A stretch of DNA of 64,000 nucleotides from Lama guanicoe (lineage: Eukaryota). A program made the position numbers and the translations under genes. Positions 17,442 through 64,000 of this stretch are shown one piece after another. The notes under the pieces were generated by a model. That model was not told the origin of the DNA. It did no database searches and saw nothing but the letters and a program-made list of their open reading frames with translations. The stretch is taken from NCBI GenBank assembly GCA_013239625.1, contig MU053156.1, positions 436,467 to 500,466 of the forward strand, in the 5' to 3' direction. The stretch's first letter is position 1; each line of letters starts with the position of its first letter.

Positions 17442-17473
17442 NNNNNNNNNNNNNNNNNNNNNNNNNNNNNNNN
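17442..17473. other. Assembly gap inside a poly-T tract
   Basis: N run. Confidence 1.
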
Positions 17474-21996: not shown

Positions 21997-22068
21997 NNNN
22001 NNNNNNNNNNNNNNNNNNNNNNNNNNNNNNNNNNNNNNNNNNNNNNNNNNNNNNNNNNNNNNNNNNNN
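21997..22068. other. Assembly gap with overlapping flanks
   Basis: T(n)GCTGTATTT occurs on both sides of the gap. Confidence 1.
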
Positions 22069-42335: not shown

Positions 42336-42394
42336 ATTATTATTGTCGTCGTTAAATTTTCACATTATCCCAAATTGCACAGTGCTCTTGTTTG

Positions 42395-43885: not shown

Positions 43886-44174
43886 AAGTTGCTGTTTTAC
43901 AGTTTTGCTAAGAGTTACTTTCATGACTAGTCAATGAATTTTATTAAATACCTTTTTACATTTATCCTAGTTAATCATTATAGTCTCATTGTGCTTTTCT
44001 GCTAATTTATATTTATTTTTGAATCTTAACCAGTATTGCATTTTCTAATATAGTCTACTATTATTCTGTTATGTTTACATAATGGCTTAACTCATGTAAT
44101 AATATTTTGTTTGAATATATACAGCATAGTCCCTTAGTTTTATATATATATATATTTATATATATATATATATA

Positions 44175-46078: not shown

Positions 46079-46507
46079 TTTTTGTAGTTCTTCTCTGTCC
46101 TTCTTGTTTTATACTCTTCCCTTATGGTTAGTTGATTTTTCTTTATTGTTATATTTGTGTTTTCTCTCACTTGTTTTTGCATATCTGATTGTTAAGTAAT
46201 TATAATTTAAGGTCGTATAATTTCTAAAAGGTCTACTGTTTTACTCCCCCCTCTTTTTTTTGTTTTGTTTTTCTTTTTGATTTTATTTTTTACATCCTCA
46301 TGTGCCTTGTGTAAGTGTTTACTGTAATTACAGTTTTTTTGTTTTGTTTTTGTTTTTTACAATTTTTGTCTTTTAGTCTTTGTAGTGACTTATTTAGGTG
46401 GTTGATTGACAGCCATTGCTTCATTTTTGCCTTTAAAGTGGGACTTCCCCCTTCACATAAGTTCTTATTTCTTGTTCTTTTGCACATAAAGAAAAGCTTT
46501 TATTACT

Positions 46508-47194
46508 ATTTTTTAACATTTTTTATTGAGTAATAGTCATTTTACAGTGCTGTGTCAAGTTCCAGTATAGAGCACAATTTTTCAGTTATACATGAAAGTA
46601 CATATATTCATTGTCACATTTTTTTCACTGTGAGCTACCACAACATCTTGTATATATTTCCCTGTGCTATACAGTATAATCTTGTTTCTCTATTCTACAT
46701 TTTAAAATCCCAGTCTGTCTCTTCCCACCCCCCAACCCCTTGGCAACCACAAGTTTATATTCTATGTCTATGAGGCTGTTTCTGTTTTGTATTTCTGTTT
46801 TGTCAGTAAGTTCATTTGTATCATTTTTTTAGTTTTCACATATAAGTGATATCATGCGATATTTGTCTTTCTCTTTTTAACTTAATTGACTTCATATGAT
46901 AATCTCTAGGTCCATCCATGTTGCTGCAAATGGCATTATTTCACTCTTTTTTAATGGATGAGTAGTATCCCAGTGTGTCAATATACTACAAGTTCTTTAT
47001 CCAGTCATCTGTCATGGACATTTAGGTTGTTTCCATGTCTTGGCTAAATAGTGCTGCTATGAACATTGGGGTGCAGGTGTCATCCTGAAGTAGGGTTCCT
47101 TCTGGATATGTGCCCAGGAGCAGAATGACTGGGTCATATGGTAAGTCTATGCCTAGTCTTTTGAGGAATCTCCATACTGTTTTCCACAGTGGCT
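46508..47194 (-). mobile_element. 5'-truncated LINE-1 with a 19-bp target-site duplication
   Basis: TSD AAGAAAAGCTTTTATTACT (46489-46507) vs AAGAAAACCTTTTATTACT (47195-47213); L1 3' end motifs in between. Confidence 0.88.
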
Positions 47195-47414
47195 AAGAAA
47201 ACCTTTTATTACTTCTTGTAAAGTCAGTTCAGCATTGATGAACTCTTAGTTTTTGCTTATCTGAGAAGCTCTTTAACTGTCTTTCAATTGTGATTAATAA
47301 CTTTGCTGAGTAGGTGGCCTAGATTCTAGGTTTTCCCCCTTTGAGTACTTTAAATATATCATGGCTGTTCCTTCTGGCCTGCAGTGACTGCTGAAAACCA
47401 GCTGAAGGGCTTCC

Positions 47415-49350
47415 ATGAGCTCACCTCTCCTCGTGACTACAGTGAAACCACAACTGACTGCTAAACAAGCATTGAAAAAAAGACTAGAACCTAGCAAAAA
47501 AGATCTTCAACTGGAATCATAAAGAGAGAACCACAGCAGGATGGTAGGAGGGGCATTCTTACGATATAATTAGGCCCGTACCCCCTGGGGTGGGCTTACC
47601 CACAAGCCGAAGAATAAATCACAAAGACCCTCCCACAGGAGTGAGAGTTCTAAGCCCCGTGTCAGGCTTCCCACCCTGAAGTCCCGACATTGAGAGGAGA
47701 AGCAGACCCCGGGACACCTGGTTTTGAAGGCCAGCAGGGCTTAGCTCTAGGAGCCCCCTGGGACTGGGGGAGACAGAGACTTCATTCTCTTGGGAAGCAT
47801 ACACACAATCTCATGTGCGCCAGGTTCAAGGGCAGAGGCAGTGATTTCATAGGAACCTGGACCAGACCTGCCTGCTTGCTTTGGAAGGTCTCCTGGGGAC
47901 ATAGGGGAAGGCTGTGGCTCACCCAGGGGGGCGTAAAAGCTGGTGGCTGACATTCTGGGCGTGTTCATCTATATGAGCTTTCCTGGAAGCTGACATTTTG
48001 TTTGGATCATTAGCACCAAAATGTAGCCGCACCCAACAGCCTGTAGGGAAGCCTCAGGCCAAACATACTGGGTGGGAACACAACCCTACCCATCAGTGGA
48101 TTTCCTGAGACAAATACACCTCTGTACACAGCCCTACCCACCAGAGGTCCAGAAACAGGCTTCACCCAGCAGTGGGCAGGCCCCGGCTCCTCCTGCCAGG
48201 AAACCTGCATAAGGCTCTAGTCCAGCCTCCTCCAGCAGGGGCAGATACCAGAAATAAGAAAACAACAATCCCACAGCCTGTGGAAGGAGCTCACAAACAC
48301 AAAGCAGATTCTACACTGGGACTGGCCGGACCCTGGCGCTTGGGTGACAAGAGAGGAGTGTGCTTCTCAGACACATAGGTCGTCTCCCACAGAGGGCCAC
48401 TTCTCCAAGGTTGAGAAACATATAAAAATACAAATAGAAAGACAAAATGAGGCAGCAGAAGAGTATCTCCCAGGCCAAGGCACAAGATAAAATCCCAGAA
48501 GAAGAAATATGATGAGGAGATGGGCAATTTATCTGAGAGTTTAAAGTAATGATGGCGAAGATGTTCAGAGAACTCAAGAGGAGTATAGATGCACAGAATG
48601 AAGTTTTTAGCAGAGTTGTAAAATATAAAGAATACCCAAACAGAATTGAAGAATAAGATCACTGAAATGAATAACACACTAGAAGGAACCAAGAACAGAC
48701 TAAATGCGGCAGAAGAATAGATCAGTGAGCTAGACGACAGGTTAGTGGAAATCACTACTGCAGAGAAAAAAGAAAAGAGAATGAAAAGAAATGAGGAGTA
48801 TAAGAGAACTCTGGGACATCATGAAGTGCTCTAATACTCACATTATAGGAGGCCCAGAAAGTGAAGAGAGAAAGGACCTGAGAAAATTTTTGGAGAGATA
48901 ATAACCCAAAACTTCCCCAACTTGGGAAAGGAAATGTCGCCCAAGGCCAGGAAGCGCAGAGTACCACACAGGATCAGCCCAGAGAGGAACACACACCAAG
49001 GCACATGGTCATCAAACTGACAAGGATGAGGAGAAAATATTAAAATTAGCAAGAGGAAAGCAACAAAATGACACACAAAGGAGCTCCCATAAGGTTGTCA
49101 GCTGGTTTCTCAGCAGAAACTCTACAGGCCAGAAGAGAGTGGCATGACATATTTAAAGTGATGAAAGAGAAAAATTCACAGCCAAGAATACTCTATCCAG
49201 CAAGGCTCTTGTTCAGATTTGATGGAGAAATCATAAGCTTCACAGATAAACAAAAGCTAAAAGGATTCAGCACCACCAAGCCAGCTTTATAGGGAATGTT
49301 AAACGGCATTCTCTAGTCATCAAACGACAAGAAAAGAGAACAAAAAGAAG
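47415..49350 (+). mobile_element. LINE-1 5'UTR plus degraded ORF1
   Basis: ORF 49068..49292 (PIRLSAGFSAETLQARREWHDIFKVMKEKNSQPRILYPARLLFRFDGEI..F.DKQKL) is the L1 ORF1p C-terminal domain; coiled-coil-coding A-rich sequence lies upstream. Confidence 0.92.
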
Positions 49351-49370
49351 GTGAGGGGGGAGGACATACA

Positions 49371-49905
49371 CAAGATTGCTGTGGCTGTTCGGGGTCTTTT
49401 GTGGTTCCTTATAAATTGTGGGATTGTTTGTTCTAGTTCTGTGAAAACTGTTGTGAGTGTTTTGACAGGGGTTGCACAGGATCTATAGACTGCTTTGGGT
49501 AGTGTGGCCATTTTGATAGTGTTGATGCTTCCAATCCAAGAGCACAAGGTATCTCCATTTCTTTGTGTCATCTTCATTTTACTTCATCAGTGTTTTGCAG
49601 TTTTCACAGTATAGGTAACCTCCTTGGCTAAGTTTATTTCTAGGTATTTTGTTGTTTTTGATGCAATGGAAATGTTTATGCCTGTTACAAAATTCTGGTT
49701 CTTGAAGTGAGGGGGGAAAAAAGTGAATGAAAGGCTACAAATGGCAAAGTATCCTTCTCTTTTATGGGTGGGTTGTATTCCGTTACATATATATGGCACA
49801 TCCTCTTTGTCCGTTCGTCTGTTGTGCGCTTGGGGTGCTTTGTGTCTTCGCAGTCGTAAATAGTGCTGCTGTTAATAGTGGGGTGTGTGTGTCTTTTTGA
49901 ATTAA
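49371..49905 (-). mobile_element. LINE-1 ORF2/3' fragments
   Basis: ORF 49320..49577 (CSWIGSINTIKMATLPKAVYR...FTELEQTI..FIRNHKRPR) is L1 ORF2. Confidence 0.85.
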
Positions 49906-50024
49906 TTCTTATTTTGTGGTTGGCTTTGTTCCTTTAATAATAACTATGTAAGGTTAAAAAGCTAAAGCTCTAAACCTTCTTAGAGACAATGAACAGTGCA
50001 TATATGTAAATTGAAAACATGTGC

Positions 50025-51612
50025 AGTAAAAACAGCTGATAGGCTCATGAGGGATTTCCTTTTCTGTGACACTTTCCTCTTCTCTTGCTGCCTTTAGAAT
50101 TCTGTCATCTTTCAGTTTTGCTTTCTGAGTGATGACATGTCTTGGTGTTGGTTTGTTTGAGCTGATCCCGTCTGAGACTCTGATTCCTGTGCCTGGGATA
50201 CCTGTTTGCTTTTTCAGATCAGGGAAGTTTTCAGCCATCATTTTTTCCAGTGTTTTCTCAGCCCTTCTCTCTCTCCCTGCAGGGACCTCTATAATGTGAG
50301 TGTTACTATGCTTGAGCTGTCTCAGAAGTCCTTTAGACTCAGGTAACATGCTTTTTCTTCCTGCTTTTCTGATTGGATGTTTCTCATTATTCTAACTTCC
50401 AGATTGCTGATGGGTCATCTGTGTTGCCTGATCTTCTGTATGACCTGCAGTTCTTCTCTGACTGGTTCTTTTTTGTGTTTCCTAGTTCTTTTTAAAAATT
50501 CTCCGTGCTCATCTGTTCCTTTTCCCAGTGCAGTTATTCTTACTACATTTGCTTTGACCTCTTTGTCATGCACATTATTTCTCTCTTTTCACTATGTTTT
50601 TTACTTAAAACATGTTTCTGTGTCTTCTCATTTTAGCTTGCATATATACCTCTGTGAAACTAGGTGAAACAGTTACCTGTCCCAGGATTAGAGGCGTGTC
50701 CTTGTGTGAGAGCACTCCTGTGCAGCCTTCTGTGCCCGGCGGGCTTGTTGGGAAGAGCTGGACCTGAAGTGATCCTGCGCTGCCGTCTTCCCTCAGGAAA
50801 TGCTGGCAGCCCCTGCAATGGGGGCGGCAGGGCTGGAGTCAGGAACTGGAGCCAGTTTCAGGTTCAAGCAGGGGCTTCTCCTCTGCTCAGTGACTGTTCC
50901 AGCTCTATCAGGGGGTGACACAGGGTCCCGTGGGGCTGGAGCAGGATCTCTGTGGTGTTGGGTTCTCCTGGGTGAGATGGCAGTCTCTGCTTTGGTTTGG
51001 GAGGTAGCTGAGGCCCCTGAGGGCTTGCAGCGGCCCTCCTGTGCTTGTTTTACCTTTTCCCCAGTGTGCACACCTTGGCTAGAGGGTGGGTCGGGACCAG
51101 AGAGATTGGGGCTGCAGCCCTGAGCTGGCCCCACTCCGTCAGGCGTGCACAGGAAAGTAAGTTCTGGGGGTGGCAGGCTCTGCCCTGATGCTAGTGCTGT
51201 TCCCTGCAGCGTGTGCAGGGACACTCTAGCTGGCAGTGACTAACTGCCTTTTCAGGGGCAGGGCCACACCCAGGCCAGTGCCACTTTCTCCCATGGTGTG
51301 CACTCTCACTGGCAGTGGAAGCCTCCGCCTGAGTGGGGAGCAGCATCAGAACACGGAGGGCTGGAGCAGAAGCCTAGGGGAGTCTGGGGGCCCTGCCTGA
51401 GCCACCCCTGCAAGCCGGCTGGAGCCCCAGGCAGTGTTCAGCCTGCTGTGTCCCTGCTGTGACGGGGAGTCCGCGAGTCTCTGCACAGCTCTTCAAGAGC
51501 AGAGTCTCGGTTTCTTACAGCGCTCCAGCAAGCCCTCTGATTTTCACCCAGCTGAGGGGCCTCATAGTCCCAGTGCTGGACCCCGTGCCTGGGTGCCTGA
51601 CGCGCGGTTCAG
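50025..51612 (-). mobile_element. LINE-1 5'UTR plus degraded ORF1
   Basis: ORF 49954..50349 (SNTHIIEVP...AENFPDL...PTPRHVI...RILKAARE) is L1 ORF1p; a GC-rich 5'UTR extends to about 51610. Confidence 0.8.
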
Positions 51613-51615
51613 ACC

Positions 51616-52546
51616 ATGACGTAAGGCGCGGGTGGTTGTCAGGGCTGGAGCACTGCTAGGACCTCACTCTGTCTGCGCACGGATGCCCACAGCTCCTAGT
51701 GTGTGTGGCTGGTGGAGGGCCTTGCGGGGGAGTGGTTGTAACTCTGTTTGGCACAGATAGATGGGGCTCATTGTGATTATTCCTCGCAAAGATGGTTACA
51801 ATGACAGGACATGCCGTCTGGTTTTCCAAGGGCTTGAAAATTATAATGCGTGATGTGCCCCAGCTGCCTAGTGTGAGCAGCATGACTGCAGGTGCTCTGG
51901 GTCCAGGAATGCAAACTCCAGTTATGCTCTTGGAACCAAAGGAGCAGGTCCTAAAGGTGCATATTTACCATAAATGCTCTTAGACGTGTCAGTCATAGGG
52001 AAACACCAGATTAAGAAATGGATGCTGTCTGAGATTAGCATTGAATTATTATAAAATGTAATGAACCTGTAAGATTCTGGATCAAAATTAGTGCAGTGAC
52101 CAGTGGAAGTGATCCAGATAGTACATACAATAAGAAATGAAGTCCTGAATCTTGTCTGATTTTCTCATTGAGTAGTAAATGATTAGGGTTTTGACTAATG
52201 TTTTGATTAAATTATAGAATGTGATGAGTTGTGTGAAAGTCTAAGGATGTTTGTAGTAAGATTAGCATTGTCATGATATAGTCTTGGGGGTTAATGATTC
52301 CTGGGATAGATGAAATTGGCTGGCTACGTGTGCTGGGGGAAGAAGACAGCTTGCTAATGCAAGCAGAGACACTGACAGAGAGGAAGGCTAGTGAAAAGTG
52401 AGGGCTAGTGTCACTCAGTTGATTCAGGAAGAATGAGCTGATAAGGCTGGTTAAAAGGCTGTAAGGTGTAATATTAATTCAGAAGATACAATTTTTGATA
52501 ATCATGTTAATGGTATTACTATGTTTGGAATAATGAGTTTTAGCCT
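51616..52546 (-). pseudogene. ND4: NUMT ND4 fragment
   Basis: (A)GGCTAAAACTCATTATTCCA start (ATG mutated to AGG); GGATCACTTCCACT; GCATTTATGGTAAATATG; GGAATAATCACAATGAGC; many indels. Confidence 0.85.
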
Positions 52547-52825
52547 TGAAGAAGGGTAAGACTTTGTACATAATCAGTACTGTAGGCGTTGGATCCCACA
52601 GCTGCTAATGATCGTCCTGGTGCAGCCTCACAGGTGGGGAGCACTGATAGTAGGTGTTACGGTAGCTGATGCAGAATGGGTGCTGAGCGTGGTGACAGTT
52701 GCTGTAATGAGTAACGATGATATTGTGCCATCTGAGCATAGTAATGAGAGTTTTGTGATTTACATATTAGTATCCACAGAAGACACTGTAAATGCCAAAA
52801 TGATAGTAATATAGACTAATGCCGT
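52540..52825 (-). pseudogene. ND4L: NUMT ND4L
   Basis: ACG GCA TTA GTC TAT ATT ... TTG GCA TTT ACA GTG TCT; TGT GAG GCT GCA; ACT GAT TAT GTA CAA; 7-nt overlap with the ND4 start as in mtDNA. Confidence 0.85.
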
Positions 52826-52887
52826 TTGATAATTGTGAAGTTAATTATTGTATGAGTCAAGATAATGTTTTTGTTTTAACTAATTAT
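52826..52887 (-). pseudogene. NUMT mitochondrial tRNA-Arg remnant
   Basis: TAATTAGTTAAAACAAAAACATTATCTTGACTCAT...CACAATTATCAA lies between ND3 and ND4L. Confidence 0.75.
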
Positions 52888-53105
52888 TCATCCTAATCCT
52901 TTTTAATTCACTCATAGGCTAACCTGATGGCTGCTAGCAGTGAGATTACAGTTTGTGCCATGAAGAGTTTAGTTTTTAGGTTATTGTTTTGATATGCTCA
53001 GGGTAGGGGTAGGAGGAGGGCCATTTCTAGGTCAAATAACAGAGAAGTAGTGACAACTGAGAGTGAAAAAATGGAGAAGGTGGGCGTGCTGACCATATAG
53101 AGTCA
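52888..53105 (-). pseudogene. ND3: NUMT ND3 3' part
   Basis: TTATTTGACCTAGAAATGGCCCTCCTCCTACCCCTACCCTGAGCA...TTAGCCTATGAGTGA. Confidence 0.88.
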
Positions 53106-54614
53106 CGGCCACGTGTTTGGGCTTGGTTTTTCTGGATAGACACTTACTAGAGGAGGTCAGAGTGTGAGCAGGACAAGCTGTGAGTCTGGCAGTGCACTGG
53201 GGAGTGACGGCAGCACAAGCTTTATTGCTCTTCCTCCAGTTACACGGAAAGCCGTAGGTTGGAAGTCAGTTGTACTGTTTAAGTCTAAAGAATAAAATGC
53301 CCATCAGTAGACAGCGGCCTGTAGGAACAATCACACTTCATCTACAAAATGCTCTATCAGGCCGCTGATTGAAATCCAAAATGATTAGATGTAAAGGGAA
53401 ATTTCAGTTGGTGTAGAAAGCACAGAATGAGAAAAGTAGAGCCAGTAATTTTGTGTGGTCAGTGGAAGCTTTTAGCCATGAAAACTACTAAGCCAGAACT
53501 CCATCTGCAGTTGTGAATTTTGTGTTCTCCTGAGGCTTGTCGTGATGTAGAACAAGTTCCCAGAGGAACTGTAATGACTCAGACACGTACTGTTTATGAC
53601 TTCTTTCTGTTAGATGATGGTGAGCGCAAGTGAGGGGAACTTCAGAGGCTCACAGACTGAAGTATTGTTATAGGACCCTTGTGTGTGGTCAGTGTGGTGG
53701 TGGTAGGTGGTGTGTGCACACACTTTATCTTTTTTCTGATCAGAGGTAGAAGGTCGTTTTAGGATCTGTGTGCGTTTGCCTGGAGTTGGGGTTCCTGGGG
53801 CCAGCTGGCAGGGCAGGGCTGGGGCCCACAGCCTGGATTAGTGTGAGGCCCTCTCACTGGACTCCAGCAGCCACCCCGGGCACCTCATCCCTTCCTCACT
53901 GTCAGCACTTGGCCACTTCACGGGGACAGAAATGAGGGTCTCTTTGACTGGCAGGCCCCGCGTGCTCAGTATTTCTAGATTGAGTGAACACCCCCCCATA
54001 TCTAGACACCAGATCTTCCCACCGCCCCAGAAGGGTTTCTCAGGCCCCCTCGCAGCCAGTACTGCCCCAAAGCACAATTTTGCTTCTGCCCCACCCTGGT
54101 AGTTTCTGCCTCCTTGGACCTGGGTGTATGTGAATCATCCAAGTGCAGTGTAGGGGGTGACAATATATAATTATAATCTATAGTTATATATATTTTTGAC
54201 GAAAATAATAGGGCTTATTTATATGCATGTATCGTATGTACTTAAAATTAATGTCATCTACACGTGTACTACAGGTAAGGACGGCCATATGGGTGTGGTG
54301 ATACGATTAAGATGGTGTGCTGTTAAGATCTCCTCCGTCTTGTGGACGTTCTGTGTGCCTTTTGCATGCAGTGCTGAGCGAGGGGGAGTGAAGACCTCCC
54401 ACTCTGCTTGTGCAGTTGGTTCCTCTTGGTTCTGTCATTCTTTACCTCACGTTTTTCAGCTACTGCCGAAGGGAGACCCTGGGAATCTGGAGGAAGTGAA
54501 GGGAGCACCCAGCAGCAGGGGGTGGGGGACCTGGATTGGGCAGGACCAGAAAGCATAAGGTCGGAAAAGTTTGCAGAGAGGACTCAGGGTTGGATGGCAG
54601 TTGGTGGGGGATCA

Positions 54615-54740
54615 GGTAGTGGGGCGCATTCTAAAAGTGAGGTCGCCCGGAATGTCCACTGTGAGGATGAGGGGCAAAGGCAGGTGATTGGTCGAGAGAG
54701 GGCATAAAGCATCGGGCGTTGCTAAGGCAGCGTTCAGACA
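54615..54740 (+). promoter_or_regulatory. Putative Pol II promoter of the MIA3-like gene
   Basis: Local CpG enrichment; CCGGAA (54647), ATTGG (inverted CCAAT, 54687), CATAAA (54703) and X-box-like GTTGCTAAGGCAGC (54718-54731), about 260 bp upstream of a Kozak-context ATG. Confidence 0.5.
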
Positions 54741-54989
54741 GGAGAAGGCTTGGAGGGAGGCGTCTTGTCCCCTTCAACTGCTCCTGAGAGTCCGCTTGAC
54801 CTGCCGTTTGTTTTCCTGACCTGCTGACCTGCGCCCCTGACTGAACCCTCCTTCTTCCCCTCAAGAGCTTGATTGACCCTCATCCTTTCTGTGACCCCCC
54901 TTCCCCTCTCAAGTCCCCAGCCCCTCTTCCTGTCGCACTCCCTCCCCAATCCCATCCCCAACCCCTGCCCCCTCCAAAAGGACCAGGAC

Positions 54990-55055
54990 ATGGAGGTGAT
55001 GAGACTGCTGTTCTGGCCCCACGTGCTGGAGTGTATTGGATACGATAATCTGTCT
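54990..55055 (+). CDS. Putative first coding exon (22 aa) of the MIA3-like gene
   Basis: GACATGG Kozak context, 66 nt open, phase-0 donor TCT|GTGAGT compatible with the phase-0 acceptor at 58909; not recognisably MIA3. Confidence 0.55.
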
Positions 55056-58000
55056 GTGAGTAAACATCGGGCATCAGGCGTCCTCCTTTTTCCTGGGCTC
55101 TTTCACACTGTGGTTAAATCCCTGCTTTCTCACGGGGTCCTTGATGGGAACGCATCGTTGGTACAGACCGAGGCCCTCAGGGCAGGTTTCTTGACCAGCC
55201 TGGAGCGGCCCTGGCCACTGGTGTCCTCATCAAGATCTGGGTCCTGTCATGACCGCTTGGACCAAACACAGCAGGGTTGACAGGATGAAACCTGAAATGG
55301 TTATTTTACTGCATCAAAGAAGGAAGTGTGAATGTACTAAAAGCCATTGAGTTGTATGCCTAAAATGGGGGAATGTGTGAATTGTATCTCAATAAAGCTG
55401 TTTTTTAAAAAGTGAGAAACTCTTACTCACTAGAAGTCATAGTGAAACTGGCTCCTGGAAAGCTTGTCAGAATCCTACTTCAGGCTGTGCACGTTCGAGT
55501 CCAGTCCCCGTGCAGTGTGCTCTCCTGTGAGTGCGCCCTTCCTGGTGGTGACGTCTGGCAGTCCTGGGAGCAGTGGGGTCTCAGCACTGGGTTGGTGCTG
55601 GTCTGTTAAACAGTGAAGTATCATCTGTGCTCTGTGCTTTCTCGTTTAACTTAGAGCAACTTTTTTTTTTCTTTGAAGTGTATTCTTTTCAGAAATTTTA
55701 ATGTAACAAATATTCAATAGCCCTTTAATTTTAAAAATATTTTTATTGAAGTATAGTCAGTTTACAATGTTATGTCAACAGTTTACAACATTCTGTGTAC
55801 AACAGAATGCTTCAGTCATATAGGAACATACATATATTCATTTTCATATTCTTTTTTTATCAAATTACTACAAAATATTGAATATAGTTCCCTGTGTTGT
55901 ACAGTATAAGCTAGTTGTTCATATACTTTATATAGATTAGTATCTGCGAATTTCAAACTCCCAATTTTTCCCTTCCCACCCCTTTTCCCCCTTTGGTAAC
56001 CATAGTTTGTTTGTTTTCTATGTCTGTGAGTCTGTTTTTGTTTTGTAAGTCAGTTTGTTTGTGATTGTTTGTGTTTTTATATTCCACGTGTAAGTGGTAT
56101 GGTATTTGACATTTACTTTGTCTATTTCAGTTAGAATGACAATCTCCAGGTCCATCCATGTTGCTGCAAATGGCATAATTTTATTATTTTTTGTGGCTGA
56201 GTAGTATTCCATTACATGAATATACCACAGCTTCTCTACCCCATCATCTGTCGATGAACATTTGGGTTGTTTCCATGTCTTGGCTATTGTAAATGGTGCT
56301 GCTGTGAACATTGGGGTGCATATGTGTTTTTGAATTAAGGTTCCCTCTGGACATATGCCCAGGAGTGGGATTGCTGGGTCATTGGTAAGTCTGTTTTTAG
56401 TCTTTTGAGGAATCTCCATACTGTTTTCCACAGTGGCTGCACGAAACTGCATTCCCAGCAGCAGTGTAGGAGCGTCCCCTTTTCTCCACAGTCTCTCCAG
56501 CATTTCACGTTTGTGGACTTTTGAGTGATGGGCATCCTGACTGTTGTGAGGTGATACCTCATTGTAGTTTTGATTTGCATTTCTCTGATAATTAGTGATA
56601 TTGAGCATTTTTTCATGTGTCTATTGGCCATTTGTATGTCTTCACTGGAGAATTGCTTGTTTAGGTCTTTGGCCCATTTTTAGGTTGGGTTTTTTTTTCT
56701 TATTAAGTTGTATGAACTGTTTATATAGTCTTGGAATTAAGCCCTTGTCAGTCTCATCTTTTGCAAATATTTTATCCCATTTTGTAGGTTGTCTTTTTGT
56801 TTTGCTTATGGTTTCCTTTAGTTAGGTCCCATTTGTTTATTTTTGCTTTTATTTCTGTTGGACTGCTAGCAACTTCTGAGTCATCCCTTTCCTTCTCATC
56901 TTGGAGGCTGCCCCCAGGGACTCTGTGTCCAGCTAGGCAGACGGGAGCCCTGAGAGCCCAGCCGATGTGACATTGAGTGGCTGCAGCTTGCTGGGATGTT
57001 TATAATGGGGAAATGCCTAGGAGCGACATGACCAGGAGGTGGACAAGTTTTCATCTTTTCTTTAGTGAAGTGTCCACGTGCAGAGTGTTGATTTTACCGA
57101 AGCGGAAAGGGTCCTACGTGTCCTTAGAATTGTCCAAATATAAAGAAAATTCAGGTACATGCTGTGAAATTTTCACTCTCCCCCGAAAAAGCACCTCCAC
57201 ACCCCAAAAAAGACTTGAGAACACCCCATGGACTTAAGTGGGTTTGTTCTGATGGGCGTGCACCAGATTCTTAGGGATCTGGAAGAATCAAGTGTCAGGA
57301 ACACTTTGCACTGAGGCGGAATCATGCCACATGAACACTCCACCCAAAGAAGAGCCTGTTCTGTGTCCTCTGAGCCCGCGAAGGAGGGCGTTTCTAGGTC
57401 ATCTTTGTTGGGATTTCTTCCCTCAAAGGGAATGAGGCTGAGTTCTCACAGGTTAGTTAAGCCCTCTTTCCCACCACAGCTTTGAGCATTTGGATAAACT
57501 AACTTGTCCTCCTCCTCCGTTGCTCATGGCCGCTGACTGTCAGGACCTGAGTCCACCGGCCCTGCTGGGTAGAGTCTGGGTCGGAGGCAGCTACTGACGC
57601 CAGCGCTGAGTGCCGTGTGTGACAAGCATGCCCGCGACAGAGGGGGTTTTACCAGTTAGCAACTAGATGCTGTTTGTCTCTTTATGCCTTTGATCTGCGT
57701 GTCTTTCCTTTGTGCTGAGACCCACTGCTCTCTCAGACAGTGGCTACTCAAAGACAGTGCATGTTTCACACCACACATCTTACTGACCTCAACTGTGAGA
57801 GCAGCTGGCAATGACAATGTTACCGACTCCAGAGGCTGCTTTCTAGAGAGGTTTTATTTGCACAAAACGGAAGCTTGGTGTCTAGATTCATACAAATTAC
57901 ATTGTGCATTTATCCCCCTCCTACAGTACTTAGAAATCAGATTTTTACAAAACTATGTGTTTGCCTTTTGTTTTGGTGACCATACATTCCAGAAGTACAA

Positions 58001-61000
58001 ATTAATTTTCATGGTGGCTGTTAATGGATGTAGGTGCAGTACTGTGAAATATGCATGCGAATTCTTTCTGCTGATTATTTTGAATTCTGTTCTTATGCAA
58101 CTTCATTCTTATAATTTTAATCACATTATACAAGATTATCAATTATACAAATCCTTATTTATTTCAGAAGTCTGACGTTACGTGCTCTGGTTCAGAATCA
58201 AAGTGAACATTGAAATAAAACATGGCTTTTAGAAAGTTGGGCTAAAATAAATCATTAATTTTTGCTAGAATAGTAATTTTGGCATTATTACTAGAGCAAG
58301 TCTGCTTTCTCACTCATGTCCAATCTATAAACATACAAATAGATCTCTGTACATCTCTCTGTATTTTAACATATTTTCATTGCTATTTTTCTATACGCTT
58401 TGGGTGTATTTTTGGCGATATTTCATAGGGATTTATCCAGGTACTTTGTGAACATACAATAGAAGATGGAGGCCTCCCATGCCCTGTAGGTTTGTGTTTG
58501 CTGATTTTCAATTTCAAGTTGGCTTCTACATTCATAAGTTAAGTTCTGTTAACTATTTTTGAAATATTTGCAATGTGTGTCAGCAAAGTCATATCTCTAA
58601 CGTTTTGTAGATCAGGCTTTTTTCTCCAGCTTTAGTGTAGTGTATTTACATGTAATATCAGCACCAGTGAATACGGTTTGTTGATATTTGACATGTGTAC
58701 ACAGCAACGAAACTATCACCAAACAAAGGCAGCAAACATACCCACACTCCCAAGAGCATCCTCCTGCTCCTTTTGAACTCAAGTGTCCCTTCTGTCCTCT
58801 CTGAGGGGCTACTTGAGGGTGTGGTTGAGGGTTTCTCAAGATGATTCTCTGTGACAGATAGACTATGAATGTCTTTGAGGTTCCTCATTATCTCCAATAT
58901 TGTTTCAGGTCGTCCACACTCTGCCTGTCCTTTTCAATCCTGGGCCTGATGTTTATGGGATTCTGTGGAAGGTTATTGTTGTTACTGCCTTCTGGGGAGT
59001 TTTTGGTTTTCTCGTTTTCATCTGGAGGACCGTCCTCGCTGTGAGTATTACTAAAGTACCTGACAGTGTCCTTTTAATCACACCTAACAGGAAGTGTTAC
59101 AGTCACTGGACATTTTATTTGCCTGCCTGGGCCAGAATCCAGGAGTCCAACCCTCTTCTTTGTTTCCTTATAGATTGCTAACTTGAACAGAAATTAATTT
59201 TGAATGGAAATTTGTTGCAAAATGCTATCTTTATAGTAAGAACTCAGTGAGCAAGACAACAATATAAGAAGTAGTAATGAGAAAATGACAATTTATAAAC
59301 CCTTTTCTTCAGTAATGAAACAAACATACCAAGTATTTGGTGAGCCCGTCTCTCCCCAGCTGCCCCTGCCTGTGTGTTGGGTGACAAGGGACAGGGAGGC
59401 TCAGTGTTCCCTGAGTGACGTGTGACGTTAAGGGAACATGGCGATTTTGTTTGCCCCCCATGGATGCATTCTTCCATAACCACATTATTGCCACTGAATT
59501 TTCGACACGGTGATGATACTCCAGTATGTTGGCAAGGTTAGGGGCTGGCCGCAGTCTCTGATCATCACTTAGAGTTTTGAATGAAGAAATATGTTTTAAG
59601 GGTCAGGAAAATGTGTCTTTACATGGCGTCACAGTGGAGTCCTGCCTGGACCTTACTGAGCCGTACCTCCTCAGGTGATGACTCGTGTCTGAGTCAGGAA
59701 GCACTTGCGCTTCGTGGCGGTGGCCGCCGTCTGCCCTGCTGCTGCTTGTGCTTGTATTACAGCCGTTGCTCACGTTCATTCTCACCTGACGTCTCATTTG
59801 ATGTCCGTTTGTTTTTAGTGGTCTTGACAAATCTTACGATCTTGTATGTTACAATTGCTTATCGATTCAACAGTCAACTCTGTATACGATTTCAGGAAAG
59901 CTTTCATTGAATGAAGGGGTGTATCTTAGTGTAAAGACTTTGCCTTTATTTTTCTTGTAGTTTCTCCTCTCTCGAAGGTTATACAACAGTCCAGGTTCTG
60001 GACTTCAGTGTGGATATTTAGTTTGACAAAAGAAAAACAAATCAGATAAATGATGCGTTGGTGTATTTACAACAACATATTATGAAAATAAAATAGTTCA
60101 GTGTTATCAAACATAAATATGCATTATGAAAATTAGATTGTTTAATAAAATGTAAACAGATGTTTTGTTCTAGAATAAGATATTTACCATTGTGCTCTCT
60201 ATCAGAAATGGTGAGTGAAAGATCGTGCCTTAAGTAGGAAATGCTGATTTTTCCTGATTTTTAATCATATGAATCGTTACGCTGAAGAAAAATGATAATT
60301 GTAAATTCAATGGATTACTGTTTTGATAGTTTATTAGAAACTATGTATTTACAAATTATATATTTTGATATCAAATTCAATGTTTCTCCCTCTCCTAGGT
60401 AAAGCCTCCAATGTATCAAGGTAAGATACTAGGGTCTACTTTTCTTTGTAATGTTTTCTCAGTATCAGGATTTGATGTGGGTTTTAATTCAACTAAGAGT
60501 AAACACAATGACTTCTAATGTCAGACTTCTTAACTCTTGAAAATTTTACTCCTGGGGTGGTGTCTAAATGACACTTCAGAGGACGTTGGCATCTATTGAG
60601 ATAAGAGACCAGGAGGGTCTGAGGAGTAGGGAGACTAGGATGAGTTTAATTTTGCATAGAAACCTTTAGGAAGCAGGTGAAGAGAAGAGTCTAACGTTTG
60701 GAGTGAGCACCTGACCTGACCTGGTCCTTGGTGAAAAGGAAAGACGCTGAAACACTGCTTGAGCCTGTCAGGACTCTTCAGGCTGAGGGAAGGATGCAGA
60801 TTGCAGCCAGGCATGTGTGTCACAGCCAAGGGGAAACCACCGTAAAGCTAAAAGGTTCATTACACTCATACTGCCAGGCAGATACATCTCTGCTGCTAAT
60901 TGGGATAATTCAGTTGTACTGGATTTTCCTACCAGTATGAGAAATTGCTTTATCTCCTTTCAGTTACTTTAAAGCAGATAACTGAGAAGATCAAGACTGT

Positions 61001-63479
61001 TGAGAAAGAAAACAGAAAACTTGAGGAAAATCTATCAGCTTGGGAGCCGAAGGTATTATTGTCCTTTTGATATTTTTTGTGATTTCACCTTCAGTTCCTT
61101 GCCCCTCTGGTAGTTCAGTTCTTTGGCTCTCTTTTCTTTCGTCCTGCTGTCCTGTTCCGTATGTTCCATAAGGGGTCTAGATTCACAGCAAGTGTCCTAG
61201 ATAAAAAAACAGCACAGGGAGCTCTACTTGATGTCTCGCAGTAACCTATGATGAAAAAGAACGTGGAGACAAATAGAGGTACATACATGTGTGAGTGAAA
61301 CGTGATGCTGTGCGCCAGAAACTGACATATACTTCAGTAAAGAAGTAAATGAAGCAGGTGTCATATATGTACAGCACCACTTTCTGTATTAGTGGAAGGG
61401 GTCACACACAAGATAGGTTCGGCTAGCAGCGTAATTAGTATTTGTAATTCTGTTTCCTTTATTACATACTTGCACAGGCCAACGACACAAAGAAATGCAT
61501 GGAGGAGACCATTAGGCAAAAGATGCTCTCTGAGGAAGCACTGAAGTTTAAGGTACGAGCCTCTTCTTTTCCTGGATTACATTCTGAAAGCAGAAATGAA
61601 AATAATGAGTAACTGTTACTGATTCAATATGTTCTGTTGAAGGAGTACATGCCAACCATGGAGAGGGTTAATGAGAGTTTGAAAGGCTTCATTCAAAGTG
61701 CTCGAGCTAAGCTGCAGGCAGCACTGGAGCAGACCGCCCCGCGTCCGCGCTCGGTAAGCGCTTGGCTGCTGCACTGGCTGCGGCTGGGCTACAGAGGCTT
61801 TCCGTGCCCTGGGTGGGCTGCGCGCTCCCGCTCCTCCCACTTTTGGCCACGGCAGAGGGTGGGAGCCTGGGAGCAGAACCTCCCTGTGAACGACGACCCA
61901 GAATTTCACGGACTAAATGAACCTGCGTGACTTTTTAACTTCAGAGACTAGGAAATAGGTCTTACTTCCACAACCTGGGGAGTTTTCTCACCACTCACAC
62001 TGCCCTCCAAGATACATAGAAAATGCCAGGAGACACCTGAGAGACGAAGGAAGTTATCTAGCCGAGGTGCACAGCCCTTAGCCCTGTTTATGTTAAAGAG
62101 AGAATTTTCCGTGTGAATTTGGGAAAACTTTATATTCCACTAGGAACACTCATTTGTGAGCTCTTTGACATGAGCAGTTTCCCACCCTTGCTTTCCGCTT
62201 GTCGTCCAGCCATGTCTTCCGTTGTCCAGTGAGGAGGAAATCTGGAGGCTAGGGAATATCTGTGCCTGAATGTCTTTGTTCTACATGTCTTCGTGGGCTT
62301 GACATTTGTCCTGGGCCCAGCCTGGATCAGCCGCCATCACAGGAAACTTAGGGGTGGCTGTGGGTCCTGGCTGAGAAGGGGCAGGATTCCACATGGGTTG
62401 AAGAGAAGCAACTGCCCATCAGAACAAACCAAGACTTGCTGGAAGAGATTGACAGGCTGGCAGTGGAAGAGGACCAGCTGAAGAAGGAAATGCAAAGCAC
62501 GAAGGGTCAGAACGAGCTGCTGGGACTCCAGTGCTAGAACTTGAAGAGACCCTGTCTGCTGTGAACTCTCAAATGGAGCAGACACTGTCTTTGACCCCAC
62601 ACTGAGATTCATGCGAAGTCCCAGATGCTTTGAAGCATGTGTAACGGGACGTATGACACTTGCTTTCTGTTCTTTTTAAAATGTGTGTGTTCAGAATCAT
62701 TTCACTGCCTTCTAGAGAGACTGCTCACCAAAGTCTTGGGACGTGTACCAGAGCTAATATATTTATTTTCTATGGTTTGTTTTGCACTTAACACAATAAT
62801 TTGTTTTTGAAAAAAAAAAGTTACACCTTTAAGCAGATCACCCTGAGTTTTCATTGAAATCTAAGTTCATGCTTTCTTTGTGTCCTGTGTGAAGATACTG
62901 GAAAAAGGAACGTCTCCAGAGACCTTGAAAGACGCTATTTCAATAAACACTTCAGGAATTTCAGAGGGAAATGCCTCCAGTTGCAGCAGGATTTCCACTG
63001 TACACATGAGCTTTCACAAGGAACAACAATCTCATGTCTTAGAAGATTAAATGTTGATGTCTATTCAAGTTACTTTTCTTGGGATTTAGTCATCAATGGG
63101 AATGTTCTCTTTTGAAATTGCTCTTAATAAAGCTTGTGTCCACAAAGCCACAGTGATACCTGAAGAAGTGTGTGTGCAGGAGAATGTCCAGCTCAGCAGC
63201 AAGAAGAGGGTAAGAAACATTCCTCACCCCAGAGATGCTTACATCAGAGAGTTGAGCGTCACTGTGTTTGTGTCTGTGCTGTAACACATATAAAGCAGAT
63301 GACCCGTCTTAGCCGTTTCCAAGTGTACGATCCTCTCGTGTTACGTACATTCACGTTGCTGGGCATCAGTGCTTCCTGAACGTCTTTTCTCACATCTGTC
63401 TTGCAGGCAGGCACTTTGAAGACCAGATCTGAGGGTTCTATGCAGAGAGCCATGATGACTGAAGAATGCAACCTGGAAG
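54990..63479 (+). CDS. MIA3: Diverged intron-containing MIA3/TANGO1 paralogue (TM plus partial coiled coil). Exons 54990-55055, 58909-59040, 60399-60420, 60964-61052, 61478-61552, 61643-61753, 62895-62966 (reads through to TAA at 63048-63050); relic exons 63111-63209 and 63407-63479. Functional truncated gene or young pseudogene.
   Basis: Spliced frame: [189 protein letters not shown]. From the second exon on, this aligns with recalled TANGO1 [22 protein letters not shown]...WRTVLV|VKDRVYQ|VTEQQISEKLKT...; introns 1-6 are GT-AG. Confidence 0.8.
55730..56860 (-). mobile_element. LINE-1 3' portion (relatively young) in intron 1 of the MIA3-like gene
   Basis: ORFs 56335..56631 ([24 protein letters not shown]) and 56018..56608 ([20 protein letters not shown]...FAATWMDLE) are the L1 ORF2 C-terminus. 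Confidence 0.93.
58909..59040 (+). CDS. MIA3: MIA3-like transmembrane exon (132 nt)
   Basis: TTTCAG acceptor, GTGAGT donor; PGPDVYG.LWK..VTAF.G..F..F.WRTVL is the TANGO1/cTAGE membrane signature. Confidence 0.9.
61200..61345 (+). mobile_element. Short LINE-1 3' end fragment in an intron
   Basis: AGCACAGGGAGCT...GTAACCTATGATGAAAAAGAA...ATGCTGTGCGCCAGAAACTGACA..TATACTTCA. Confidence 0.65.
62367..62819 (+). pseudogene. JAKMIP1: 5'-truncated processed pseudogene of JAKMIP1 (short-isoform 3' end)
   Basis: [52 protein letters not shown], then after frameshifts [24 protein letters not shown]. This matches recalled JAKMIP1 ...[83 protein letters not shown] 3'UTR and an A10 tail (62810-62819) follow. 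Confidence 0.88.
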
Positions 63480-63512
63480 GTATGTTGCTTGTTGGGAAGA
63501 AAACCTCATATG

Positions 63513-64000
63513 CAGGCTTCCTGGGAGATGTTGTGGCTTCAGTCCTAGACCCCTAGAATAAAATAAATATCATAGTAAAGAGAGTGAAATGATTTTTAAT
63601 TTGGCTTTCCAGTGCATGTAACAGTTATGTTTACGCTACATTGCAGTCTATTAAGTGAGCAATAACCACTGTGTCTACAAACCCCAATGGTCATAATTTA
63701 ATGAAAATATACTTTCTTACTAAAAACTACTATCCACCACCGGAGCCTTCAGTGAGGTGTTGTCTTTTCATTGGTGGATGGTCTGGAATTGATGTTGGTG
63801 GCTGCTGACCCATCATTGTGGCAGTTGCTGAAGATTGATGTGGCTTTTGCAACTTAACGTAAGACCACAGTGAAGTTTGTCACAGGGCAACTCTCCCTTT
63901 CAGGAAGAAGTCCTCTGTAGTAGGCAATGCTGTTTGATAGATTTTACACACAGGAGAACATCTTTCCAAATTGGAGTCAGTCCTCTCAAACCCTGCGGTG
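63513..64000 (-). mobile_element. Tigger1 DNA transposon (3' end; runs off the window)
   Basis: CAGGC..CCT.GGAGAT.TTG.GG.TTCAGT.C.AGACC...AATAAA...TTTCCAGTGCATGTAA.AGTTATGTTTAC.CTA...AGTCTATTAAGTG matches the Tigger1 terminus. Confidence 0.85.

What the first reader, a model, noticed from the sequence alone, without database searches (positions are those of the whole stretch)
54990..63050. Rebuilt TANGO1 (MIA3) paralogue: new N-terminal exon, membrane segment and part of coiled coil 1, with no SH3 domain
Seen in sequence: seven exons splice GT-AG (introns 1-6) into a stop-free frame of 189 codons, or 216 with read-through to the TAA at 63048. Exon sizes 132/22/89/75/111/72 nt fit the MIA3 structure as I recall it (the 75-nt exon is one codon short). 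Only about half of the TM-exon residues match by eye, and fewer in the coiled-coil exons. The neighbouring COL12A1 copy, by contrast, is full of stops and frameshifts. Established: TANGO1 organises ER exit sites via a luminal SH3 domain, cytosolic coiled coils and a Sec23-binding proline-rich domain; primate CTAGE expansions derive from MIA2/cTAGE5 largely by retroposition. Inference: this is a DNA-level MIA3 duplicate that evolved fast while keeping its frame, possibly a lineage-specific ER membrane protein family. The 216-aa form would lack the proline-rich domain and could modulate or compete with TANGO1.
Basis: partly seen in the sequence, partly recalled or inferred. Interest (0 to 1): 0.78.

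Follow-up and report, generated by a model that had tools for sequence, protein, structure and literature searches.

The report
Fast-evolving TANGO1-like gene family in camelids
This is one intact copy of a many-copy camelid gene family descended from the ER-exit-site protein TANGO1; it keeps its reading frame while its amino acids change at least as fast as neutral DNA, and it runs on past the end of the window.

Summary
The seven GT-AG exons and the 216-codon frame are there exactly as described.

- **Extent.** The gene does not end at 63050. The coding sequence goes from exon 6 to 63407-63479 and on through eight or more exons beyond the window, encoding coiled coil 2 and a short proline-rich tail.
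- **Exon 1.** It is not new. It is the signal-peptide-like first exon of a placental-wide short "MIA3-like" family that matches Pfam NPIP.
- **Copy number.** This genome holds at least 13 loci. Each lies in a mosaic duplicon of 36 kb or more that carries a dead COL12A1 fragment upstream.
- **Selection.** Against the closest paralogue, all 26 splice sites and the frame are kept, and all four exon indels are multiples of 3. Yet exons differ more than introns (9.2% against 6.6%) and dN/dS is about 1.
- **Orthology.** The real MIA3 lies on another contig.
- **Expression.** It could not be tested.
- **Status.** Automated gene models exist. My searches found no paper.

The parts
34162..64000 (+). 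Part of a mosaic duplicon of 36 kb or more. It is collinear with contig C811 at about 91% identity and runs on to about 69790 in window-extended coordinates.
   Evidence: blastn blocks 34162-39971 (91.1%), 41639-45357 (91.8%), 45350-53832 (91.0%), 54202-68131 (91.0%) and 68084-69788 (90.7%).
34577..39273 (+). COL12A1-derived fragment of about six FN3-coding exons. These are decayed pseudo-exons.
   Evidence: tblastn to collagen XII residues about 1771-2033 of P0011. Against C811 it differs at the neutral rate, 54 of 793, with frameshifts (1- and 13-nt gaps) and stops. The 5.3-kb piece matches 35 contigs of the genome.
37165..37310 (+). Alternative 5' exon used by alpaca model P0001. It is not conserved as coding sequence.
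   Evidence: It maps at 98% to P0001 residues 2-49. The dromedary models read the same DNA in another frame. The C811 copy has stops and a 13-nt gap here.
39123..39264 (+). Second alternative 5' exon of alpaca model P0001, FN3-derived.
   Evidence: C811 has a 1-nt gap that shifts the frame.
54990..55055 (+). Exon 1. It holds the ATG and a 22-codon signal-peptide-like leader, and is the conserved start of the family.
   Evidence: It is 74% identical to the start of P0007 and 58% to P0008. The same leader pattern occurs in horse, ferret, bear, zebu, rabbit, lemur, anteater, dog and tree shrew proteins. It differs from C811 at 11 of 66 bases, more than the intron rate (p=0.004).
58909..59040 (+). 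Exon 2. It encodes the TANGO1-type transmembrane segment (132 nt).
   Evidence: Pfam NPIP scores 24.8 bits and 28.8 bits in the genome scan. It is 41-47% identical to three full-length MIA3 proteins. The real MIA3 exon is the same size.
60399..60420 (+). Exon 3 (22 nt).
   Evidence: It keeps AG/GT in 9 of the 9 paralogous loci where it is covered by one alignment block.
60964..61052 (+). Exon 4 (89 nt), the start of coiled coil 1.
   Evidence: It is identical to C811 at 89 of 89 bases, while the flanking introns differ by 5-7% (p=0.002).
61478..61552 (+). Exon 5 (75 nt; 78 nt in MIA3 and in five paralogues).
61643..61753 (+). Exon 6 (111 nt).
   Evidence: It differs from C811 at 16 of 111 bases (p=0.003 against the intron rate).
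61856..61930 (+). Alternative terminal exon inside intron 6, used by an older alpaca model (P0030, 119 aa).
   Evidence: The P0030 sequence read against the window sequence. Named.
62418..62613 (+). JAKMIP-like fragment inside intron 6, with stops in this copy.
   Evidence: tblastn to dromedary P0006 residues 418-484 gives 84% and 70% identity. P0006 matches Pfam JAKMIP_CC3 (29.6 bits). The stops are visible.
62895..63050 (+). It is the ancestral 72-nt MIA3 exon (62895-62966), whose donor is now GG, so the frame reads through to the TAA at 63048.
   Evidence: It is 54% identical to mink TANGO1 residues 182-205 (E=0.001) and matches zebu and rabbit family proteins. The real MIA3 exon is 72 nt with a GT donor. 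C811 shares the GG and the TAA. The peptide is absent from all camelid family proteins fetched.
63111..63209 (+). Relic of the next ancestral exon. The acceptor is lost here by a 3-nt deletion relative to C811. C811 has extra frame-breaking indels and a stop.
   Evidence: alignment and the MIA3 comparison.
63407..63479 (+). The true next coding exon after exon 6. The gene then continues beyond the window.
   Evidence: 24 of 24 residues identical to P0001 residues 240-263. AG/GT is kept in C811. Further exons lie at 65495-65630, 66994-67092, 67779-67839, 67952-67987, 68063-68151, 68268-68362, 69539-69609 and from 69966 on, in window-extended coordinates.

Best explanation
The window holds the 5' half of a protein-coding gene. 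It is one copy of a subfamily amplified in camelids. That subfamily descends from an old placental 'short MIA3-like' paralogue of TANGO1, the same protein type that Pfam files under NPIP.

**Gene structure.** The conserved coding sequence starts at the ATG of 54990.

**Protein.** It is about 440 aa and consists of:
- a short leader;
- one TANGO1-type transmembrane helix;
- the first 85 or so residues of coiled coil 1;
- a coiled-coil-2-like region;
- a short proline-rich tail.

It has no SH3 domain and lacks the second half of coiled coil 1.

**Genomic setting.** The gene sits in a duplicon of 36 kb or more. The duplicon also carries a dead COL12A1 fragment and a JAKMIP-like fragment, and it has been copied to many places in the genome.

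**What is shown.** Selection has kept the frame and the splice sites, while amino-acid change runs at or above the neutral rate and unevenly between exons.

**What is inferred.** The protein is probably anchored in the ER membrane with its coiled coils in the cytosol. Through the CC2-like part and the proline-rich tail it could associate with TANGO1/cTAGE5 or COPII. Its rapid change may reflect a germline or conflict-type role, as is usual for such families.
For: **The gene extends beyond the window**
- Alpaca model P0001 maps exon by exon onto the window and its contig up to about 70130 at 98-100% identity.
- Exons 2-14 (363 aa) differ at 6 positions from P0001 and at 3 from P0249.

**Frame and splicing are under selection (window against C811, 14 exons)**
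- All 26 splice sites are kept.
- Exon indels are 3, 3, 3 and 63 nt. In introns only 17 of 81 indels are multiples of 3.
- Simulated neutral expectations are P(no stop)=0.017, P(no frameshift)=0.003 and P(splice sites kept)=0.029.
- Matched controls in the same duplicon do decay. The relic exon has 1-, 3- and 1-nt indels and a new stop. The COL12A1 exons have frameshifts and stops.

**Amino-acid change is fast and uneven**
- Exons differ at 106 of 1156 sites and introns at 842 of 12778 (Fisher p=0.0015).
- At non-CpG sites the figures are 80 of 1079 and 629 of 12165 (p=0.003).
- dN/dS for this pair is 0.70-1.20 depending on the method.
- Among six copies, exons 2-6 differ more than introns in 15 of 15 pairs, 12 of them at p<0.05.
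- dN/dS is at least 1 in 12 of 15 pairs by NG86 and above 1 in 13 of 15 by ML.
- Exons are heterogeneous (chi-square p=0.03). Exon 4 shows 0 of 89 differences; exons 1 and 6 show an excess.

**The other copies**
- In the 12 other loci, 43 exon instances were covered. Fifteen changed length and 12 of those changes are multiples of 3. The three that are not lie in two loci, C6062 and C9102.

**Family placement**
- The short family (18 rows) and MIA3 (6 rows) are each 100/100 clades.
- The five camelid amplified copies form a 100/100 clade on a long stem.

**Retained domains**
- P0001 residues 97-233 match mink TANGO1-short 38-175 at 45% identity.
- P0001 from about residue 240 to 508, inside a longer BLASTP block (152-508), aligns to mink about 340-592 at 29% identity.
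Against: **No transcript evidence.**
- Every protein record found is an automated genome annotation.

**Other points against.**
- dN/dS near 1, with differences spread evenly over codon positions (38/31/37), is also what neutral decay gives.
- The dead relic exon differs from C811 by 29 of 315 (9.2%), as much as the live exons. So the exon-over-intron excess may partly reflect local mutability, not positive selection.
- Alpaca models of this particular gene use other 5' exons, not the ATG at 54990.
- Exon 1's hydrophobic core is interrupted (P, H, E), so it may not act as a signal peptide.
- At least one copy (C6062) is a pseudogene, and exon 6 of C9102 is broken.
- Intron indel rates include repeat-rich DNA and may overstate the expected number of frameshifts.
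- The pairwise comparisons among six copies are not independent.
- The function is inferred only.
Confidence: 0.72

Rival explanations
1. The main product is a 216-aa (or 189-aa) protein that ends in the 72-nt exon and its read-through. It would lack CC2 and the proline-rich domain and would act as a competitor of TANGO1.
For: - The acceptor at 62893-62894 is AG and the frame is open to the TAA at 63048.
- An AATAAA lies at 63126-63131.
- C811 keeps the same open read-through and the same TAA.
- Short alternative ends do occur in annotated models, for example P0030 (119 aa), which ends in intron 6.
Against: - The donor is GG in both copies and the following ancestral exon is broken.
- No camelid family protein fetched contains this exon's peptide.
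- The alpaca models join exon 6 to 63407.
- The eight downstream exons keep their frame and splice sites against C811, with 59 differences in 660 nt and only in-frame indels. That is not expected if translation ended at 63050.
Confidence: 0.1
2. It is a non-functional duplicate, a pseudogene or a non-coding transcript, whose frame has survived by chance and recency.
For: - dN/dS is about 1 and differences are even over codon positions.
- The dog relatives of NPIP were reported to evolve neutrally (PMC7419210, passages read).
- Some copies are broken.
- There is no expression evidence.
Against: - The joint neutral probability of no stop, no frameshift and intact splice sites is of the order of 1e-6, the product of the three values.
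- Twelve of 15 exon length changes across the copies are multiples of 3.
- Neighbouring dead sequence in the same duplicon does accumulate frameshifts and stops.
- Exon 4 is identical over 89 nt (p=0.002).
Confidence: 0.12
3. The conserved product is a chimeric COL12A1(FN3)-MIA3-like fusion protein, as in alpaca model P0001 and the dromedary models named 'Collagen alpha-1 chain'.
For: - The gene models exist.
- The COL12A1 piece lies 7-27 kb upstream on the same strand at eight other loci.
- The exons at 37165-37310 and 39123-39264 have GT donors, and 39123-39264 has an AG acceptor.
Against: - Alpaca and dromedary models read the same DNA in different frames.
- Between the window and C811 these exons differ at the neutral rate (54 of 793) and carry 1- and 13-nt gaps and stops in the P0001 frame.
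- The first two residues of P0001 (M, E) read P, Q at the mapped place in this genome.
Confidence: 0.08

Closest known systems
TANGO1 / MIA3, in particular the TANGO1-short isoform
   Same: - Same exon structure (132/22/89/78/111/72 nt).
- Homologous transmembrane segment and early CC1 (45% identity, E=1e-33).
- A CC2-like region (29% identity) and a proline-rich end.
- Like TANGO1-short, it has no luminal SH3 domain.
   Different: - It is not at the MIA3 locus, which is on C8876.
- It lacks about 165 residues of CC1, because two or more ancestral exons are dead.
- The proline-rich part is short.
- It has a different first exon from TANGO1-short.
- It is multi-copy and fast-evolving, whereas MIA3 is single-copy and conserved (69-88% to mink).
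Placental short 'MIA3-like' genes, named by NCBI 'transport and Golgi organization protein 1 homolog' or 'MIA3-like' (270-540 aa)
   Same: - Same leader exon spliced straight to the TM exon, and the same coiled-coil layout.
- One 100/100 clade containing anteater, tree shrew, horse, rabbit, lemur, zebu, dog, bear, seal, ferret and otter proteins.
   Different: - The camelid copies form their own long-stemmed clade.
- They have lost the 72-nt exon and the exon after it, both of which zebu and rabbit still use.
- They are amplified to at least 13 loci, with a COL12A1 fragment attached.
NPIP / morpheus family on the primate LCR16a core duplicon (Pfam PF06409)
   Same: - The Pfam NPIP profile matches the family. 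Scores are lemur P0213 66.8 bits, zebu 44.3, rabbit 38.1 and this window's TM exon 24.8-28.8.
- It shares interspersed multi-copy spread, mosaic flanks and a kept ORF with rapid amino-acid change. For NPIP these features are described in PMC7419210 (abstract and passages).
- A weak NPIP-MIA3 similarity is noted in preprint 10.1101/116087 (passage).
   Different: - Orthology to NPIP is not shown.
- Whole protein P0001 gives no NPIP hit at E<=0.01.
- The profile's first 50 positions also match true TANGO1.
- No family copy was found on the contig that carries NTAN1 and RRN3. That these two genes neighbour human NPIPA1 is my recollection.
- This expansion is in camelids, not primates.
Primate cTAGE family
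   Same: It is a lineage-specific multi-copy family of SH3-less TANGO1-like membrane coiled-coil proteins.
   Different: By my recollection, cTAGE copies derive from MIA2 and are mostly intronless retrocopies. Here the introns are kept and are alignable between copies at 74-92%, and the parent is MIA3-like. No named MIA2 sequence was fetched, so distance to MIA2 was not measured.

Membership tests
TANGO1/MIA3 proper | Luminal SH3 domain | tested here: not met
   tblastn with the first 1300 residues of four full-length MIA3 proteins found only the TM exon in the window. No SH3 hit appeared in the Pfam scans of P0001, P0007 or P0008.
TANGO1/MIA3 proper | TANGO1-type transmembrane region followed by coiled coil 1 | tested here: met
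   45% identity over 138 residues to mink TANGO1-short, E=1e-33. Only the first 85 or so residues of CC1 remain.
TANGO1/MIA3 proper | Coiled coil 2 and a long proline-rich domain | tested here: inconclusive
   The CC2-like region aligns at 29% identity, E=7e-26. The proline-rich tail is about 50 residues and aligns only in part (E=7e-7). Binding to cTAGE5 or Sec23 was not tested.
TANGO1/MIA3 proper | Orthologous position (the single conserved MIA3 locus) | tested here: not met
   Thirteen exon matches at 69-88% identity covering residues 1-785 of mink TANGO1-short lie on C8876. The window is on C243.
Placental short MIA3-like family | Hydrophobic leader exon spliced directly to the TM exon, with no luminal domain | tested here: met
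   Exon 1 to exon 2. The same leader pattern occurs in 13 family proteins listed.
Placental short MIA3-like family | Groups with the family, apart from MIA3, in a tree | tested here: met
   18-row clade at 100/100 and MIA3 clade at 100/100, from 24 rows and 392 columns. The root is midpoint only.
NPIP (Pfam PF06409) | Score at or above the gathering cut-off of 27.5 bits | tested here: inconclusive
   The TM exon alone scores 24.8 bits and 28.8 bits in the six-frame genome scan. Whole P0001 shows no hit at E<=0.01. Relatives pass: P0213 66.8, P0042 44.3, P0035 38.1.
NPIP (Pfam PF06409) | Orthology or synteny with the ancestral primate NPIP locus | tested here: inconclusive
   NTAN1 and RRN3 are on contig C4016. 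No family copy was detected there. The contig's extent is unknown, and the neighbour relation in human is recalled.
Core-duplicon type gene family | Many interspersed copies with mosaic flanking duplications | tested here: met
   At least 13 loci with the TM exon lie on 12 contigs. Alpaca models lie on 9 different contigs. The COL12A1 and JAKMIP fragments are co-duplicated.
Core-duplicon type gene family | Positive selection on the embedded gene | tested here: inconclusive
   Exon divergence exceeds intron divergence in 15 of 15 pairs, and dN/dS is 0.76-2.28. However, the dead relic exon is equally divergent, and no site or branch model could be run.
cTAGE (MIA2-derived retrogenes) | Intronless retrocopy structure | tested here: not met
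   The introns are present and homologous between copies.

The most novel reading that the evidence does not exclude
Camelids have their own counterpart of the primate LCR16a/NPIP 'core duplicon'. On this reading the same ancient MIA3-like/NPIP-type gene independently became the core of an interspersed, mosaic segmental duplication that spread to a dozen or more sites on many chromosomes. It has picked up COL12A1 and JAKMIP fragments, and its protein is under diversifying selection. The tendency of this gene to seed dispersed duplications would then be an old mammalian property and not a primate peculiarity.
Probability: 0.3. Interest if true: 0.85.

Novelty: new variant of a known kind. Interest (0 to 1): 0.62.

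Why it matters
**For cell biology.** TANGO1-family proteins organise ER exit sites. A dozen SH3-less, fast-changing relatives in one mammalian lineage are untested modulators of that machinery, or a set re-used for something else.

**For genome evolution.** Interspersed mosaic duplications built around a rapidly evolving gene are regarded as a primate hallmark, according to the background section of PMC7419210 (read). A camelid family with the same features, built on a protein of the NPIP/MIA3-like type, would give an independent natural replicate. It could be used to ask why such 'core' genes spread and what selection acts on them.

**For annotation.** The family's conserved coding start is the leader exon at 54990. 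The collagen-derived 5' exons in current automated models are probably not conserved coding sequence.

Tried and rejected
**RNA evidence**
- The look-up of sequencing runs listed six runs marked RNA or 'RNA?'. Each holds only 5-9% of the sampled words, and two of them are labelled reproductive system. None was laid, so they count as no evidence.

**Searches that gave nothing useful**
- PDB sequence search with the TM exon gave only a chance hit, E=1.3.
- Pfam on the other five exon peptides gave nothing below E=0.02.
- The profile search of the word-indexed protein database with alignment A1 was crowded out, returned 4 proteins and gave no NPIP names.
- The ESM Atlas gave only 'TGO1 fragment / NPIP 77%' as the nearest named cluster (score 0.96). 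That is a lead and not a test.
- The earlier-findings look-up returned nothing.
- The synteny test for NPIP orthology through NTAN1 and RRN3 was inconclusive.

**Data I could not get**
The multi-copy analysis therefore rests on exons 2-6 and on the pieces already held.

**My own errors, corrected**
- I first read the stretch between 62966 and 63111 as an insertion into one exon. The real MIA3 gene shows a short intron there, so these are two ancestral exons.
- An automatic splice search misplaced one junction. It was corrected to 63479/65495.
- A semi-global exon extraction gave unusable output and was replaced by a BLAST-block method.

**Interpretation rejected**
- The dromedary proteins at 68% identity are not orthologues of this copy. 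They match the copy on C8676 at 135 of 143 residues, against 92 of 140 for the window.

**Literature**
- No paper holds NPIP+TANGO1, MIA3+alpaca or COL12A1+'segmental duplication'+camel.
- Fifteen listed papers for TANGO1/MIA3/paralog/camel and 15 for MIA3/alpaca/dromedary/camelid showed none on this family. I saw the listings only.


Full report
**1. The observation**

The seven exons are in the sequence as described:
- 54990-55055, 58909-59040, 60399-60420, 60964-61052, 61478-61552, 61643-61753 and 62895-63050;
- all six introns are GT-AG;
- the frame runs 216 codons from ATG to the TAA at 63048-63050.

In the real MIA3 gene of this same genome I measured 132, 89, 78, 111 and 72 nt. The 22-nt exon was not located there.

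The similarity to TANGO1 is real:
- The TM exon is 41-47% identical to three full-length MIA3 proteins.
- The region from the TM exon to exon 6 is 45% identical (62 of 138, E=1e-33) to mink TANGO1-short.
- No SH3 or other luminal MIA3 exon was found in the window.

**2. What the gene really looks like**

A database search with the TM exon found an alpaca protein model (P0001, 514 aa) at 98% identity, and camel models at 68%.

P0001 maps exon by exon on the window and on the next 6 kb of its contig. After exon 6 the models go to 63407-63479, not to 62895. They continue through eight more exons that encode a CC2-like region and a short proline-rich tail.

- It is 54% identical to mink TANGO1 (E=0.001), and zebu and rabbit relatives still use it.
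- Its donor is GG in this copy and in the closest paralogue.
- The next ancestral exon has lost its acceptor here and is frame-broken in the paralogue.
- None of the camelid family proteins I fetched contains this exon's peptide.

So the 216-aa form is at best a minor product, and the protein is not devoid of a proline-rich end. Relative to TANGO1-short it lacks about 165 residues of CC1.

**3. The N-terminus**

Exon 1 is not new:
- Alpaca paralogue models start with the same leader (74% and 58% identity).
- The same pattern opens short TANGO1-like proteins of horse, ferret, bear, zebu, rabbit, lemur, anteater, dog and tree shrew.
- The tree-shrew protein still carries a remnant resembling the end of the SH3 exon after this leader. 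This suggests, by inference, that the leader descends from the MIA3 signal-peptide exon.

The alpaca models of this particular gene use other 5' exons, two of them from the COL12A1 fragment. Those exons are not conserved coding sequence:
- Alpaca and dromedary models read them in different frames.
- Between the window and its paralogue they differ at the neutral rate (54 of 793 against 376 of 5722).
- They carry 1- and 13-nt gaps and stops.

**4. A multi-copy family in a mosaic duplicon**

The window's own assembly (2.05 Gb) holds at least 13 loci with the TM exon, on 12 contigs. They align across exons and introns at 74-92% identity, and these counts are lower bounds.

The closest copy, on contig C811, is collinear from 34162 to about 69790 at about 91%. 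That span of at least 36 kb includes the COL12A1 fragment.

That fragment covers about six FN3 exons. It matches 35 contigs of the genome. At eight other loci it lies 7-27 kb upstream of the TANGO1-like gene on the same strand.

A JAKMIP-like fragment sits in intron 6.

Alpaca models of the family lie on nine different contigs, and camel models on many.

The dromedary proteins are orthologues of the copy on C8676 (135 of 143 residues identical), not of this one (92 of 140). The amplification therefore predates the split of Old and New World camelids.

The real MIA3 is on C8876.

**5. Selection**

*Window against C811, 14 exons*
- All 26 splice sites are kept.
- Exon indels are 3, 3, 3 and 63 nt, while only 17 of 81 intron indels are multiples of 3.
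- At intron rates the chance of no frameshift is 0.003, of no stop 0.017-0.05, and of unchanged splice sites 0.029.

*Exons against introns*
- Exons differ more than introns: 106 of 1156 against 842 of 12778 (p=0.0015).
- At non-CpG sites the figures are 80 of 1079 and 629 of 12165 (p=0.003).
- dN/dS is 0.70-1.20.
- Exons are heterogeneous (p=0.03). Exon 4 is identical over 89 nt, while exons 1 and 6 are in excess.

*Six copies, exons 2-6*
- Exons exceed introns in 15 of 15 pairs, 12 of them at p<0.05.
- dN/dS is 0.76-1.59 by NG86 and 0.89-2.28 by ML.

*Twelve other loci*
- Forty-three exon instances were covered, and 12 of 15 length changes are multiples of 3.
- C6062 is a pseudogene, and exon 6 of C9102 is broken.

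*Caveats*
- The pairs are not independent.
- The dead relic exon is as divergent as the live exons (29 of 315). Positive selection is therefore suggested, not proven.
- Selection for an open, spliceable frame is well supported.

**6. Family placement**

A full-library search gave 253 relatives at E<=0.001.

In a tree of 24 rows, the short family forms a 100/100 clade apart from MIA3 (100/100). It contains anteater, tree shrew, horse, rabbit, lemur, zebu, carnivores and an old alpaca copy. The five amplified camelid copies form a 100/100 clade on a long stem (midpoint root only).

Pfam files this protein type under NPIP. Scores are:

| Protein | Bits |
|---|---|
| lemur P0213 | 66.8 |
| zebu P0042 | 44.3 |
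| rabbit P0035 | 38.1 |
| this window's TM exon | 24.8 to 28.8 |

The cut-off is 27.5 bits. True TANGO1 also matches the start of that profile.

In the literature:
- A 2017 preprint notes weak NPIP-MIA3 similarity (10.1101/116087, passage).
- PMC7419210 reports dog orthologues of NPIP that evolve neutrally (passages).

Orthology of the camelid family to NPIP is not shown, and a synteny check was inconclusive.

**7. Mechanism**

*Shown*
- It is a conserved open, spliced coding frame that encodes a leader, a TANGO1-type TM helix, part of CC1, a CC2-like region and a proline-rich end.

*Inferred*
- The protein is anchored in the ER membrane with cytosolic coiled coils.
- It may associate with TANGO1/cTAGE5 or COPII.
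- It may have a germline or conflict-type role.

*Not tested*
- Expression was not tested, because the one read-laying run was lost.
- Localisation and binding were not tested.

**8. Novelty**

Automated gene models exist, named 'uncharacterized protein' or 'TANGO1 homolog'. My searches found no paper on the camelid family.

I file it as a new variant of a known kind: a camelid amplification of the placental MIA3-like/NPIP-type gene inside a mosaic duplicon.

Noticed in passing
window 62418-62613: A JAKMIP-like coiled-coil fragment lies inside intron 6. Dromedary models use it as a coding exon (Pfam JAKMIP_CC3, 29.6 bits), but this copy has stops. It is a third gene fragment in the duplicon.
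   Followed up: partly
window 61856-61930: An alternative exon inside intron 6 ends an older 119-aa alpaca model (P0030) after exon 6.
   Followed up: partly
window 54857-54985: The C-rich stretch just upstream of the ATG weakly resembles the family's own proline-rich C-terminal repeats (tblastn E 0.005-0.08). It is low-complexity sequence, so this may be chance or the tail of a neighbouring copy.
   Followed up: no
It could serve a short isoform.
   Followed up: no
window 48460-48825: A coiled-coil-like match with stops appears between the COL12A1 piece and the gene. I take it for a LINE-1 ORF1 remnant, but this was judged by eye only.
   Followed up: no
G000 contig C55225:11228772-11230001: An apparently intronless TANGO1-like open frame (463 aa open, 33-37% identical to mink TANGO1-short). 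It may be a retrocopy of a MIA2/MIA3-type gene.
   Followed up: no
G000 contig C1686:1338393-1343664: This copy of the COL12A1 piece is closer to the window's (94-98%) than the one on C811. No TANGO1-like part was detected on that contig. The collagen piece matches more contigs (35) than the gene part does.
   Followed up: no
proteins P0009, P0018, P0040, P0198 (bears): Bear models carry two TM motifs in one protein and lie on several contigs. The short family may therefore also be multi-copy in Ursus.
   Followed up: no
proteins P0001 and P0249 (alpaca, same 25.3-Mb contig): Alpaca has two nearly identical genes of this type on one contig. The window's copy is closer to P0249 (3 differences in 363 aa) than to P0001 (6 differences).
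   Followed up: partly
Pfam PF06409 (NPIP), profile positions 1-50: The start of the NPIP profile matches the TM exon of true TANGO1 from fish to mammals (for example P0014 at 26.5 bits and P0056 at 36.1 bits, the latter with an SH3 domain). NPIP hits on this region alone therefore do not separate NPIP from TANGO1.
   Followed up: partly
window 7841-8335, 13351-13444, 17442-17473, 21997-22068: There are four runs of N, which are assembly gaps or withheld stretches, in the left part of the window.
   Followed up: no
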